Assembly (NCBI GenBank): GCA_020137815.1
Contig: CM035359.1
Coordinates: forward strand, 3,224,001-3,288,000
Length of the DNA stretch: 64,000 nt
DNA from: Hormiphora californensis
Taxonomy: Eukaryota > Animalia > Ctenophora
Direction: 5' to 3'
The translations under genes were made by a program, and so were the position numbers. Below, piece by piece: positions 41-31,229 of this stretch. The first letter of the stretch is position 1; each line of letters begins with the position of its first letter. Below the pieces are notes generated by a model. It was not told the DNA's origin and did not search any database. It was given only the letters and a program-made list of their open reading frames with translations.

Positions 41-223
41 CACCCGCACGTACAGCCCCTGCTTTTTGAGGGTCGAGCTAGGCAAGCCCATGTATGGTCG
101 AATCACAAAAGTAAAAGCGAGATAGATAGGAATTGATATACTAATTGCCGCTATACAAAGCTGCGATGCAGATTCTATAAGGACATGGTACAGTATCAAA
201 CCATCAACATCATCTCCATACAT
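41..223 (-). CDS. Candidate alternative first coding exon A (MYGDDVDGLILYHVLIESASQLCIAAISISIPIYLAFTFVIRPY...GLYVRV), with a hydrophobic segment
   Basis: Acceptor atattcAG 22 nt upstream of ATG at 223. The frame is open to the window edge, so it is absent from the ORF track. A possible phase-0 donor GTG|gtaaaa lies at 41, but the exon may instead continue past position 1. Confidence 0.35.
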
Positions 224-1057
224 CACCGACAGATCAGAAGTCCCACTGAATATATTAATATGATTATATCAGGTTCGGAGACAGAGAAGAAGGTTCGGCG
301 ACACATGGAAATATCGCTCTCTGAGATACTATACTCCCACAGAGGGATATATATACTGGGATCGGATCAGCTGATGGATAATAGAGATAATTACCCACTA
401 AACACGTATCATTTGGATTTTGGATAATTACGGTGCGGGTATATTATATTGTGTTGGTAAGAGCTACTATATACTCCTCCCCATGAGGATCATACTGATC
501 AACCTACTACGACAAGTAACTGCTCCGTATATAATTGTAATTACTGGTCAGGGCAATCACAGCTCAGCAGCTTCTCCTTCTACTCAGGAGGGTGGAAGGA
601 ATCCCTGCAATTGAGAGACCTCTCTTTCGCTTTCCTGTAAGCTGTATGCTACGTCAGCGGGACATGTGACAATCAGGTGGATGTGTAATGAGCTGCAATA
701 GAGCCGGTAATTGTAAAGAAATTCACATAAATTAGTTTCATGGTATCAAAATGACAACATGAGACCCAGAGATCTCATGGTTACAATTGCTGGAGCTGTC
801 ATCTTGCAACCGCAAAGCCGCAAAGGGATGATTATAATATGAAGTTTAACTTCCAGTTCACATGCAGATTTCTGAATTCGAAAGAATTGTCGCCCATCAT
901 GTGTACACAGTGTGCCATGATGATTGGATAGAGTTAAGATTATACATGAAGATAATAGAAATTGATAACTGGCTATCTCTACATAACAGCCATGGGATCT
1001 CACCGAGAAACGATGTATGCGGTTTGGTAAATTAATCTTTAGCTCTTTTTATTTTTT

Positions 1058-1175
1058 TCTCTCTCTCTCTCTCTCTCTCTCTCTCTCTCTCTCTCTCTCT
1101 ATATATATATATATATATATCTCTCTCTCTCTCTCTCTCTCTCTCTCTCTCTCTCTCTCTCTCTCTCTCTCTCCC
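1058..1175. repeat. (CT)n/(TA)n microsatellite
   Basis: Direct inspection. Similar (CT)n/(GA)n tracts at ~6450-6620, 8780-8840, 11716-11865, 14900-15005, 15630-15680, 25795-25880, 29945-30022, 32575-32725 and 42390-42555. Confidence 0.95.
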
Positions 1176-2095
1176 TCTCGCTCTCCCCCTCACTTTATCC
1201 CTCTCTCTCTCCCCATCCCAAACCGCGGCTCGTTTTGTAGTACGCAACTAATTATCTGGTGAAAGATGAAAGTAAGTAACACCCTTAATGCCAAAAGCAT
1301 CAAATGCACGTTTAGTAAAGCAAGGTGGAGCGGTACCAAAGGTATTATAATTCTGTCTTGTTTTTGTGGTCTGGAGCCAATTGGAAATCTCATTACTCAA
1401 AGCCATGTATAATATAGTTATTCAGTCAAGAGCTGAGTGGGTACCTATATCTGGATGCAAAAGAGGTTTATATATCCGATGATCGATTCATTTCATTTTC
1501 TGACGGTCACCAAGCATGACCTCTAAAGCATTCCACAATTTATACGATTAAACTTTTGAAGCCAGCGCATACATATTGTCAGACATAATAAAATCCAAGC
1601 GTTTCAATACATGATAGTTGCTACATATGCTGCAAAAATAACCCCAAGAAAGACACAAGCATTGTGCCATCTGAAGCGTGTACAACAGATGGCCCTATTA
1701 TAAGTTTTACAGTCAGTGAAAAGTGTTGAACACACTATGTGTCGCTCAATCTGATTGCAGGTGTGAAATTGCAGCTCGTGCGATAGAACACGGTACGTGG
1801 TTTATTTAAAAACATGAACCTTCATGTTTCCGTTTAGCTGTATAATAGTGAATAGGCTAATATCTAGTGAAGTAATGAATCTGAACAAATTCAAATCAAA
1901 CCAAAGGGCAATATCAAGAGTGGCAAATTATATACCCAGCGCATGACGAGACATGAGTTCCTCCAGAACAATTGAGACTCAACATAGCATCTTCAGTGAT
2001 GTTAAACAAGAAGAAAACAATATTCGAGGTTGTGGTCCTCGTCCTCCGGACGTAGAGAGTATCAAAAATAAATGCAGGGAAACAATTATACTCAC

Positions 2096-2200
2096 CAGGT
2101 TTGGGAGGTGAACTGCGTCAATATCCCCTTTAGAACCATCACCATCATCACCATTCCGTCCGATGTTGGTGTAACCTATCCTGGAGCGCTCTGTGCCCAT
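2096..2200 (-). CDS. Candidate alternative first coding exon B (MGTERSRIGYTNIGRNGDDGDGSKGDIDAVHLPNL)
   Basis: ATG at 2200, 35 codons, ending at consensus donor CTG|gtgagt in phase 0. AG 11 nt upstream of the ATG. Confidence 0.55.
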
Positions 2201-28179: not shown

Positions 28180-29499
28180 GGGTGTCCTCCACGAACAGTA
28201 CTAAACTTTTAGATCTCGACTAATTTGGCCTTTTGAGTGTGAAAATTGGAGAGCTCTATCGATTTCGTCCACGAACTACAGAATTAGTGTTGGTTTTTTG
28301 TGCTTTGAGTAGGGTTTTAGAGAGGGATTAGTTCCATACTAAAACCCCCTCCACGTGGTACAAGTCACGTGATTTCACGCCCCATTTCACACTGAACCCA
28401 TATAAGCCCCACTAACCTAGCACTAAAATTTCGACTAAACATGCTGAGAATTTAGCCAACCCAAAGGCTGTCTAAATTGAAACTAAATTTTACTATTGTG
28501 GAAATGCGTTCCCAAAACGACCCCAAAATGACTCAAAATTGCCAAAATGGCCACGGTTGTCTTTGACACACATGCTTACATGATGAACTTGAGATATTGA
28601 AATTGTTTAAATTGAAAAAATCATTTTAAAGGAACGAGATAAGAGGGAGAGAGAGAATTACTTATGTGCATATCCCAGAAATATGAGAGGATGTATGAAA
28701 GAGTATAATTAGACAGTACTTCTCAAGATATGTACTAGGGGGCCAAAATGAAATATTATACTGGATAGAATTGCCTGTATTATGTTTAACTAGCAAAATC
28801 ATAGCAAAAGTATCAAAAGTAAGTACGTATCTCTCTTATAGTCTCTCTCTCTCTCTCTCTCCTTCTCTCTCATTCCCCTCTCAAGTCTCATTCCCCTCTC
28901 TCCCAATCTCAGTCCCCCCTCTCATTCTCCCCTCTCATTCCCTCTTCTCTCCCAAACTCATTCCCATCTCTCATTCCCCCTCCCATTCCCACTATATCCC
29001 AATCTCTCACTCCCCCGCTCATTATCCACCTCTCATTCCCTCTCTCATTCCCCCTCTCATTCTCCCCTCTTTCCCAAACTCATTCCCATATCTCATTCTC
29101 CATCTCTTTCCCTCCTATCTCCCAATCTCTCATTCCCGGTTCCCCCTTTCATTATGCCCCTCTCGTTATCCCCCTCTCAGGTGTGGCACTGGCTATTAAT
29201 TATCGCACATTGATAATCAAGTGTTCTGATTGGCCAGTGGATCTCTATCTCGATTCACACATTACGTTCCACGTTATTGTATGTCACGCTGATATCTTCA
29301 CGTGATGGAAAAGAGAGAGTGCCCATTGGGTGTCGCATTCTATCACATGTATAACACCTCAGTATCACGTGGGTCGGACCAAGCCCCGAAACATGTTGTT
29401 CGTGGACGGTTTTCTAAAGTTTAGCGAAATATTAGTCCCTCACTAACTTGACTTCTAAATTTCAACACTAAACTGAATTTAGTTTCGTGGAGGACACCC
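28180..29499. mobile_element. Non-autonomous TIR element, possibly PIF/Harbinger-type
   Basis: 16-bp TIR gggtgtcctccacgaa / ttcgtggaggacaccc, subterminal gtccacgaac repeats. The 3-bp flanks aca/aga match only partly. Confidence 0.6.
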
Positions 29500-30677
29500 A
29501 GAAATTCGTACACAAACCCGAAATATAGTGTGATTAGTTCGAGCAAACAACAGAATGAAGTAGAGTTTAGTCGCTAACCCACTAGGGACATATTCAGGGG
29601 TGAGAAGGTGCAGTCACTAGACACAATGAGTCATCATAGTTCATACAGTCCCCGTGTGGATTGTGCCGAAAAATGAATAAATTAAACGCTTATACGTGGA
29701 CGTAGTATAGTGAGAAGCGTAAAGAAGGTAACCTTTGAGTTCGCTGTATGGTCGCTGCGATGTTATTATGAATATATGGATATTGGTACAATTCATTCTC
29801 TCTTCTTCTATTATCTCCCTTCCTATCTTTCGTTCTCTCAGTCTCGCCCTCTCTCTTTCGCTCTCTCTATCTCTATATCTAGATCTCTCTCTCCCTCTCT
29901 ATCTTTCGTTCTCTCAGCCTTCAACTCTCTCGCTCTCTTTCTCGCTCTCTCTCTCTCTCTCTCTCTCTCTCTCTCTCTCTCTCTCTCTCTCTCTCTCTCT
30001 CTCTCTCTCTCTCTCTCTCTCTCCCACGTGACTCAATTCACACACCACTCGGGCACTCGGCCGATCACTTTAGATGATAGGATACAATCTATATACCGGA
30101 GAGGGCCGGGTATACTTGGTACGTGTGATAAAACCAGCTGAGCAACACCTACCAAAAGGATCTGAATTTATTCATTTGTGTTACACTCTCCATTGTTATA
30201 TATATGAGCAGATGATCGGTCATAAATGAATAGCTCCTTCAAAATGGGTCGAATGTGCCTTTTGAATATAACAATTAGGTCTGTGTCGCCACTCATGGTC
30301 GACTACTGCGGTCTTCCTGAGGGAGCGTGATCTACAGTAACATGCTCTGCATAAACTGATTGGTGGGTGCCCACTGCCCTTGCTACGACGGAGTGGTGGA
30401 CGTGCTGTGGCGCCTAATAAGCGTGTTCGGTGCGGCCTCTGCTACTTTCGAGCATGTCATCCTCCAGATGCAACAAACAAAAATAAAGGTAAACAATTTA
30501 TTAAACAACCACCAAAAAATCAGATCATGTAATAACGCAATCAAAAAGTATAATTTTTCCAAACCTAGAAACCATTTAAACTTCCTAAATTTAATGAGGG
30601 AATAGTACGCTAGATGCTTAAAAAGCGTGGGGTCACAAAGGACGATTTGAAAATCATTATATACACAATTCTCTTAC

Positions 30678-30848
30678 CGGTTGGCTGCTGTCAGAACTGC
30701 TACTGCTGATACTCCGTCCCCTTCGGAAGCTAACATCTCGATATGGTGACATGGTCTTCAAACTCTCTCCCTCCTCCTGATCCTCCGGGAGCTGGTCCAG
30801 GAGGGGTCTCGCACCACCATTAGATCTGTCCAGTTCGGTTATGTTCAT
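30678..30848 (-). CDS. Candidate alternative first coding exon H (MNITELDRSNGGARPLLDQLPEDQEEGESLKTMSPYRDVSFRRGRSISSSSSDSSQP)
   Basis: Acceptor aatttacAG 6 nt before the ATG. 57 codons ending at donor CCG|gtaaga, phase 0. Confidence 0.6.
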
Positions 30849-31229
30849 GCCACGCTGTAAATTGTTATAAGTTAATGGGGGAAAACACTTGTGCTTGAAC
30901 CTCTAGTTCAGGCCAAGCTGCTATTTTCTCCCATTGTAGAACATTAAAACAAGTAGAATTGAGTACGAGCGAGTATTGACAAAGAAAGGATTTGGAAAAG
31001 ACAAAGAAAGCATATTATCAACAAACTATCAATAAAAGCCCTGTCTATACGCCTAATCTGTTCAGATAGCAATAAAACACAAGGATTGTTGCTATCTGAG
31101 ATTCCTATAGCAGTTGATCACGTCATATTTATTGTTATCAATTGATGCGTTAACTAGAATCTAGTGATCATGCGGAATGGTTGTCGACAATTGCAATTTA
31201 TGGCCAAGACTGCATGCGTGACTTGGTCA

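What the first reader, a model, noticed from the sequence alone, without database searches (positions are those of the whole stretch)
41..30856. Array of 7-8 mutually exclusive first coding exons over 31 kb (variable N-terminus cassette locus)
Seen: on the minus strand, isolated coding-like islands at 41-223, 2096-2200, 5784-5906, 8431-8538, 9338-10636, (13332-13475), 16735-16923 and 30678-30848 each have an upstream AG, then an ATG, an open frame and a GT donor exactly in phase 0 (gtgagt, gtatgt, gttagt, gtagga, gtatgt, gtaaga). They cannot be chained as constitutive exons: the AG-to-ATG distances (22, 11, 13, 52 nt) are out of phase, and E and G have in-frame stops before the ATG. The peptides are mutually unrelated (35-433 aa). 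Inference: each splices to one common phase-0 exon left of the window, giving one protein body with many interchangeable N-termini. This resembles the variable-first-exon logic of UGT1A, protocadherin or PDE4 loci, but is built from non-homologous exons. Spliced-leader trans-splicing is known in ctenophores, so the upstream AGs may be SL acceptors. Caveat: the candidates were picked by eye, so selection bias is possible.
Basis: partly seen in the sequence, partly recalled or inferred. Interest (0 to 1): 0.85.

Follow-up and report, generated by a model that had tools for sequence, protein, structure and literature searches.

The report
Comb jelly alternative first-exon gene
A comb-jelly gene likely starts from five or six unrelated first exons spread over 30 kb, one of which keeps its start and its predicted splice site in distant comb jellies; this is a known way of varying a protein's front end, and the presumed shared body of the gene was not found.

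Summary
The window is ctenophore DNA, most likely Pleurobrachia (85% protein identity to a P. bachei gene model). All eight ATG-to-GT, phase-0 stretches exist on the minus strand. Six look like real exons (2096, 5784, 8431, 9338, 30678, probably 16735); two do not (41-223, 13332-13475). An unbiased scan finds more minus-strand phase-0 ATG-to-strong-donor frames than shuffles give (3 against 0.23; 4 of 1000 shuffles). The 433-codon exon has homologues in Mnemiopsis and three unnamed clusters. They share its start, and similarity stops at a Val (the GT), followed by tails of 1-51 residues: a conserved first coding exon whose donor gene callers read through. No body or terminal exon was found in the window. 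The claim that the exons cannot be chained holds only for 9338 and 2096; four others have in-phase acceptors, so three starts is the minimum. No RNA covered any of the four exons tested, so a shared acceptor, promoters and spliced-leader use are unshown, and the gene is unidentified. Best reading: an ordinary multi-promoter gene of the plectin type (unrelated first exons), not a UGT1/protocadherin-type cassette of paralogues.

The parts
9338..10636 (-). First coding exon, 433 codons, phase-0 donor AAG|GTAGGA; conserved across ctenophores. Predicted small helical N-terminal domain (about residues 4-68), helix pair (116-154), long disordered middle, conserved basic C-terminal helix running up to the donor
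   Evidence: in-frame stop 3 nt before the ATG
10637..10798 (-). Likely 5' UTR of that exon, behind a strong T-rich acceptor (AG ends at 10799); could be a cis or a spliced-leader acceptor; holds 5 upstream ATGs
   Evidence: inferred
2096..2200 (-). Likely first coding exon, 35 codons, donor CTG|GTGAGT (6/7); no in-phase acceptor upstream of the ATG
   Evidence: no homologue search run; no RNA cover
5784..5906 (-). Likely first coding exon, 41 codons (frame open from an ATG at 6026 as well), donor AAG|GTATGT (6/7); weak in-phase AAG/GAG acceptors allow an internal reading
   Evidence: no RNA cover
8431..8538 (-). Likely first coding exon, 36 codons, good start context, donor AAG|GTTAGT (6/7); in-phase TAG 45 nt upstream allows an internal reading; strong out-of-phase acceptor at 8721
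   Evidence: no RNA cover
16735..16923 (-). Probable coding exon, 63 codons, highest coding score per codon, donor GTG|GTATGT (4/7)
   Evidence: not counted in the shuffle tests at 5/7 or 6/7; no RNA laid here
30678..30848 (-). Likely most upstream coding exon, 57 codons, donor CCG|GTAAGA (5/7); CAG acceptor in phase 6 nt before the ATG (AG ends at 30855)
   Evidence: no RNA laid here
41..223 (-). Rejected as a first exon: weak donor (3/7), negative coding score, frame open to the window edge
13332..13475 (-). Doubtful: weak donor TCA|GTGTGT (3/7), low coding score; lies just downstream of a stretch that looks like poor assembly
1..77 (-). Speculative start of a shared exon: TAG acceptor with a phase-0 frame open for 25 codons to the window edge (modest pyrimidine tract)
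   Evidence: only; one of 11 such acceptors listed in 1-2090; metagenome scan with the overlapping stretch found nothing

Best explanation
The stretch holds six ATG-to-GT phase-0 frames on the minus strand that are likely alternative first coding exons of one ctenophore gene, each likely started from its own promoter and predicted to splice onto a shared phase-0 exon beyond the left edge of the window. Shown: the frames, their excess over chance, their lack of mutual similarity, and the conserved start and end point of the 433-codon exon. Inferred: that this end point is a used donor, that the exons share one body, and that each has a promoter. The likely result is one protein body with front ends of 35 to 433 residues that differ in charge, phosphorylation motifs and docking helices, and so likely in location or regulation by cell type, as in plectin.
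For: Excess of minus-strand phase-0 ATG-to-strong-donor frames: 3 against 0.23, 4 of 1000 shuffles; plus strand 0. Exon 9338-10636 has homologues in 4 clusters at 90% identity, plus a P. bachei fragment. Of the 14 homologues that reach the C-terminal helix, 12 start at the equivalent Met. 13 have Val right after the basic helix (11 Val-Ser, as GTRAGY would read; 2 Val-stop), followed by unrelated tails of 1-51 residues whose stop moves even within one cluster. 9338 and 2096 have in-frame stops just before the ATG and no in-phase acceptor upstream, so they cannot be whole internal exons, yet they lie in the middle and at the downstream end of the row. No convincing internal or terminal minus-strand exon in 1-34,300 outside the 9338 frame. 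The next minus-strand gene upstream, Ras-like, appears to end with its own stop at 38720.
Against: No junction evidence: neither run covered any of the four exons laid. No spliced full-length protein among the 4 hits in 1.84 billion representatives, nor in the longer-length word search. The Mnemiopsis record annotates the homologue as a free-standing 417-residue protein. One homologue (P0006) has Ala, not Val, at the donor position. Four exons have in-phase acceptors. Only one of six exons was searched for homologues. At the looser donor cut and without the long exon the excess is weak (72 of 1000 in any phase). One RNA contig matches the presumed intron at 8851-9083 exactly.
Confidence: 0.55

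Rival explanations
1. One gene, but fewer starts: only 30678, 9338 and 2096 are obligatory first exons, and 16735, 8431 and 5784 are internal or cassette exons (or both first and internal), chained behind them.
For: In-phase open acceptors before 8431 (TAG, 45 nt), 16735 (TAG, 27 nt) and 5784 (AAG, 0 and 21 nt).
Against: These acceptors are weak (6-7 pyrimidines of 13, or AAG) next to the T-rich ones of the plus-strand gene. GC-rich, coding-like sequence begins near the ATG in each case (by eye).
Confidence: 0.2
2. The exons are real but begin different genes, nested or in parallel, whose bodies lie beyond the window.
For: Nested genes, many parallel to the host, are common in Hormiphora (2357 in 1654 hosts; PMC8527503, passages). 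Phase 0 is the commonest intron phase (recalled).
Against: No body exon was found for any of them inside 31 kb, so several genes would have to interleave across the same edge. All six share strand and phase.
Confidence: 0.1
3. 9338-10636 is a single-exon gene, as annotated in Mnemiopsis, and the short frames are chance picks.
For: KAL5271022.1 is a complete 417-residue record; no longer form was found; an RNA-run contig lies just downstream of the read-through stop, at 8851-9083.
Against: Similarity ends at Val/Val-Ser in 13 of 14 homologues, and tail length varies from 1 to 51 residues. No AATAAA/ATTAAA within 900 nt past the donor. The same run has no cover on the coding part from 9388 upward. 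The three best short exons exceed chance on their own.
Confidence: 0.1

Closest known systems
Plectin (PLEC): twelve first exons spliced into exon 2 (PMC8468861, passages and figure legend read)
   Same: Row of first exons, each giving a different N-terminal peptide to one body; isoform-specific expression is the expected use.
   Different: Plectin's variable heads are described as short; here one is 433 residues with predicted folded parts. There is no sign that this gene is plectin: its body is unseen.
[quoted passage not shown]
   Same: Same mechanism: promoter choice sets the N-terminus.
   Different: Five or six coding first exons is at the upper end. I found no ctenophore case in the searches.
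UGT1 and clustered protocadherin loci (PMC3325998 and PMC1885805, search listing and start of abstract only)
   Same: Tandem variable first exons in one phase upstream of presumed constant exons.
   Different: Their variable exons are duplicated paralogues of one domain (recalled); these are unrelated and 35-433 codons long.
Mnemiopsis leidyi KAL5271022.1 (ACHWQZ_G001618) and P. bachei sb/3475800
   Same: Homologues of exon 9338-10636 (32% in the alignment; 85% over 110 residues).
   Different: Both are hypothetical stand-alone models. The Mnemiopsis one ends three residues into the predicted intron and is likely an unspliced first exon.

Membership tests
UGT1/protocadherin-type variable-exon cluster | Variable exons are paralogous copies of one domain (recalled) | tested here: not met
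   All-against-all BLASTP of the 8 peptides: no similarity among the six credible exons
UGT1/protocadherin-type variable-exon cluster | Each variable exon has its own promoter | not testable with these tools
   No shared 7-mer in more than 3 of 6 upstream regions; no chromatin or 5'-end data
UGT1/protocadherin-type variable-exon cluster | Common downstream constant exons | tested here: inconclusive
   Outside the window; no genome held; no RNA cover; no spliced protein
Plectin-type multi-promoter gene | Several unrelated ATG-bearing exons with donors in one phase on one strand | tested here: met
Plectin-type multi-promoter gene | At least some cannot be internal exons | tested here: met
   9338 and 2096: stop before the ATG, no upstream in-phase acceptor; conserved Met for 9338
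Plectin-type multi-promoter gene | All splice to one second exon | tested here: inconclusive
   No junctions in the two runs laid on 4 of the 8 candidates
Plectin-type multi-promoter gene | Isoform-specific expression | not testable with these tools
   Needs raw or single-cell reads
Spliced-leader trans-spliced transcripts | Leader joined at the upstream AG | tested here: inconclusive
   Leader on 56% of Hormiphora Iso-Seq reads (PMC8527503), so the prior is high; no reads here. The leader's 3' motif occurs once with a mismatch, at chance level (27 of 100 shuffles), which speaks only to leader genes in the window
SAP/LEM (helix-extension-helix) domain at the start of exon 9338 | Fold match above background | tested here: inconclusive
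   Single-sequence model pLDDT 60; several SAP/LEM-type chains at Z 3.7-4.7 (emerin LEM Z 4.2, rmsd 2.1, 43 aligned; PIAS1 Z 4.7, rmsd 2.7, 50 aligned), none at Z 8; no such Pfam hit at E up to 1

The most novel reading that the evidence does not exclude
A ctenophore gene kept, across the pleurobrachiid-lobate split (about 180 million years, PMC12221973), a set of six unrelated N-terminal modules, one carrying a ctenophore-specific helical domain. These would be chosen by cell-type promoters and each capped by spliced-leader trans-splicing: an independent origin of promoter-coded isoform diversity in the sister lineage of all other animals, hidden in current annotations as orphan single-exon genes.
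Probability: 0.2. Interest if true: 0.65.

Novelty: new member of a known kind. Interest (0 to 1): 0.4.

Why it matters
The mechanism is common in bilaterians, so it would not surprise a splicing specialist. Its value is for ctenophore biology. It would be a worked case of many promoter-coded N-termini in this lineage (none found in three paper searches). It also suggests that some 'orphan hypothetical' ctenophore genes, such as Mnemiopsis ACHWQZ_G001618, are unspliced first exons of larger genes. That would inflate orphan counts and hide isoforms in cell-type atlases. If the body proves to be a neural, muscle or ciliary signalling gene, the locus would offer a direct test of how ctenophore cell types diversify proteins.

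Tried and rejected
No own genome is held, so the left neighbour could not be read. Run search: 2 rows, shares 0.09 and 0.00. Laying both on 7620-11690 and 1215-6385 gave cover only on repeats and on 8851-9083 plus a little more up to the 9252-9387 bin; no joints. Contig absence proves nothing, and 41-223, 13332, 16735 and 30678 were never laid. Two metagenome scans found nothing. PDB sequence search: best E 0.2, chance. Pfam on the alignment: IL3 in 3 of 8 members at best E 8e-6, not in the window's own sequence, not pursued. Atlas search with P0001: no hit above 0.79 or TM 0.25; a second Atlas request did not complete. Full-length model pLDDT 42; no fold match at E 0.001 or Z 8. Bacterial promoter scan: uninformative. 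Locus tags were not found in papers or in the one supplement searched. The Hormiphora supplements were not available and may hold the orthologous gene model. Derelle 2010 and Zhang 2004 are not held. Earlier findings: none near or alike. An RFX X-box idea for the promoters was dropped: strict matches occur only in one tandem repeat at 3878-3925 that is very abundant in run X2.
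Full report
Naming. Exons are given by their lower coordinate.

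Organism. No genome is held for the window. The long exon matches a Pleurobrachia bachei gene model at 93 of 110 residues and a Mnemiopsis leidyi protein at 32%. The window is therefore most likely a Pleurobrachia species (Ctenophora, Pleurobrachiidae). This is inference from labels.

1. Observation. All eight stretches start with ATG, are open and end at GT in phase 0. Their quality differs. Donor matches (7 scored positions) are 6 for 2096, 5784 and 8431, 5 for 9338 and 30678, 4 for 16735, and 3 for 41 and 13332 (read). A small coding model trained on two other genes in the window scores 9338 at 21.8, 16735 at 10.9, 30678 at 7.6, the three short ones at 2.2-2.9, 13332 at 1.3 and 41 at -1.9. 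The model is weak for short exons.

To address selection by eye I scanned both strands of 1-31,500 for any ATG frame of 99 nt or more ending at a good donor. Shuffles give 0.23; 4 of 1000 reach three in phase 0, and 7 of 1000 in any phase. At 5/7 there are six against 1.74 (12 of 1000; 24 in any phase). Without the long exon the figure weakens to 31 of 1000 (72 in any phase). The cut-offs were set knowing the candidates, and 6030 low-complexity bases were masked. In the right half of the window the minus strand has none at 6/7, and the plus strand, which carries real genes, has four. The pattern is more than chance, for about six exons rather than eight.

2. The long exon is a conserved first coding exon. 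Word and profile searches found four 90% clusters and one fragment: three unnamed ENA clusters (5, 6 and 2 members), Mnemiopsis KAL5271022.1, and the P. bachei piece. Fourteen sequences reach the C-terminal helix. Twelve begin at the equivalent Met. Similarity runs through an (R/K)L(S/A)-containing, basic helix and then stops. The next residue is Val in 13 of 14 (Val-Ser in 11, Val-stop in 2; Ala-Ser in P0006), as it is in the window's own read-through. The tails are unrelated between clusters and 1 to 51 residues long, and the stop shifts even within one cluster. Val-Ser is what a phase-0 GTRAGY donor reads as, so this is the signature of gene callers running into an intron. These are four or five lineages, not fourteen independent cases. 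The lobate-type sequences have one residue fewer between the conserved Tyr and the Val. Hormiphora (same family as Pleurobrachia) and Mnemiopsis split about 180 million years ago (PMC12221973, passages). The predicted structure is mostly disordered (pLDDT 42) with helical parts at 4-68, 116-154 and 395-432. The first 60 residues resemble SAP/LEM helix-extension-helix domains, but only at Z 3.7-4.7 on a pLDDT 60 model: a lead, not a result.

3. Can the exons be chained? 9338 and 2096 have stops 3 and 15 nt before the ATG and no in-phase acceptor upstream. Because 9338 sits mid-row and 2096 last, one constitutive chain is excluded, and three starts (30678, 9338, 2096) is the minimum if all belong to one gene. 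A scan for internal and terminal exons found nothing convincing on the minus strand in 1-34,300 apart from the candidates (the 9338 frame itself was left out of the listing), while it recovered the plus-strand gene's exons at 33238, 33660 and 34194. The next minus-strand gene upstream is Ras-like and appears to end at its own stop. Two stretches of homopolymer junk (about 6900-7560 and 13780-14750) may hide sequence.

4. What could not be shown. The run search gave two rows. Laid at 80% likeness on 7620-11690 and 1215-6385, neither covered 2096, 5784, 8431 or the body of 9338, and there were no joints. X1 has an exact 233-base contig at 8851-9083, in the presumed intron below 9338. It may be DNA, pre-mRNA, the leader region of 8431, or a 3' UTR of an unspliced 9338 transcript; it counts slightly against my reading. 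No spliced full-length protein appeared, and two metagenome scans were empty. The body gene is therefore unnamed. A TAG at 78 opens a phase-0 frame to the window edge and might start the shared exon, but it is one of 11 such sites listed in the first 2 kb.

5. Mechanism. Most likely (0.55) each exon has its own start site, inferred from the stop-before-ATG layout and the upstream acceptors. Its donor then joins the first downstream strong acceptor of a common exon beyond the window, skipping the other first exons because these lack good in-frame acceptors. The upstream AGs could take a non-coding exon or the spliced leader, which is on 56% of Hormiphora Iso-Seq reads (PMC8527503, passages); either fits, and neither is shown. 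Rivals: fewer starts with some internal exons (0.2); separate nested genes (0.1); a single-exon gene plus chance (0.1).

6. Comparison. It works like plectin, where twelve first exons splice into exon 2 and give differing N-termini (PMC8468861, passages), and like alternative first exons in general, used by half of human genes (PMC13082882, passages). It fails the paralogy feature of UGT1/protocadherin clusters (that feature is recalled, and I saw those papers only as listings). Searches for a ctenophore case found none: one search gave 0 papers; two searches gave listings with no ctenophore isoform study (12 of 150 listed).

7. Verdict. The mechanism is of a known kind. Interest 0.4, resting on the lineage, the conserved 433-codon head, and the likely mis-annotation in Mnemiopsis, which gives a quick route to the answer.

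Noticed in passing
window 39257-39574 and 38720-38938, minus strand: Divergent Ras-family GTPase exons (Pfam Ras E 0.001 and 0.21, below cut-off) lacking the usual DxAGQ motif (recalled) and ending in a CaaX-like Cys-Val-Ile-Ser-stop.
   Followed up: partly
window 30250-30450: GC-rich island just downstream of exon 30678; 44 nt at 30375-30418 are 86% identical to 39427-39470 inside the Ras-like exon. No Pfam hit. Unexplained: gene fragment or chance.
   Followed up: partly
window 33238-36900, plus strand: Multi-exon gene (exons 33238-33398, 33660-33740, 34194-about 36510, probably more) coding a Ser/Glu/Lys-rich protein with no Pfam family; transcribed away from exon 30678.
   Followed up: partly
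window 61225-64000, plus strand: LDL-receptor class A repeat followed by a seven-helix-receptor-like region, in two long overlapping frames (Pfam Ldl_recept_a E 2.5e-9); the frame change near 62400 may be an intron or an assembly error.
   Followed up: no
window 43727-44893, minus strand: 388-codon frame with a weak GIY-YIG hit (E 0.043), like the 3' part of a Penelope-type retroelement (recalled).
   Followed up: no
window 17653-20319: Nested inverted and tandem repeat block with 814-base arms at 99% identity; foldback-type element or assembly artefact.
   Followed up: no
window 6900-7560, 13780-14750, 49300-49900: Homopolymer-rich stretches beside (GA)n or purine-rich tracts that look like poor base calls rather than real sequence.
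   Followed up: no
window 3878-3925: 9-base tandem repeat whose copies fit an RFX X-box pattern (recalled); similar repeats are very abundant in run X2.
   Followed up: partly
window 8308-8417, 26780-26854, 33058-33101, 39767-39876, 46077-46176: Dispersed repeat of about 110 bases, five copies in the window, also in both runs; one copy lies 14 nt past the donor of exon 8431.
   Followed up: no
window 58122-59931 and 49957-52200: Long tandem arrays with open frames in several registers (18-base unit; about 45-base unit).
   Followed up: no
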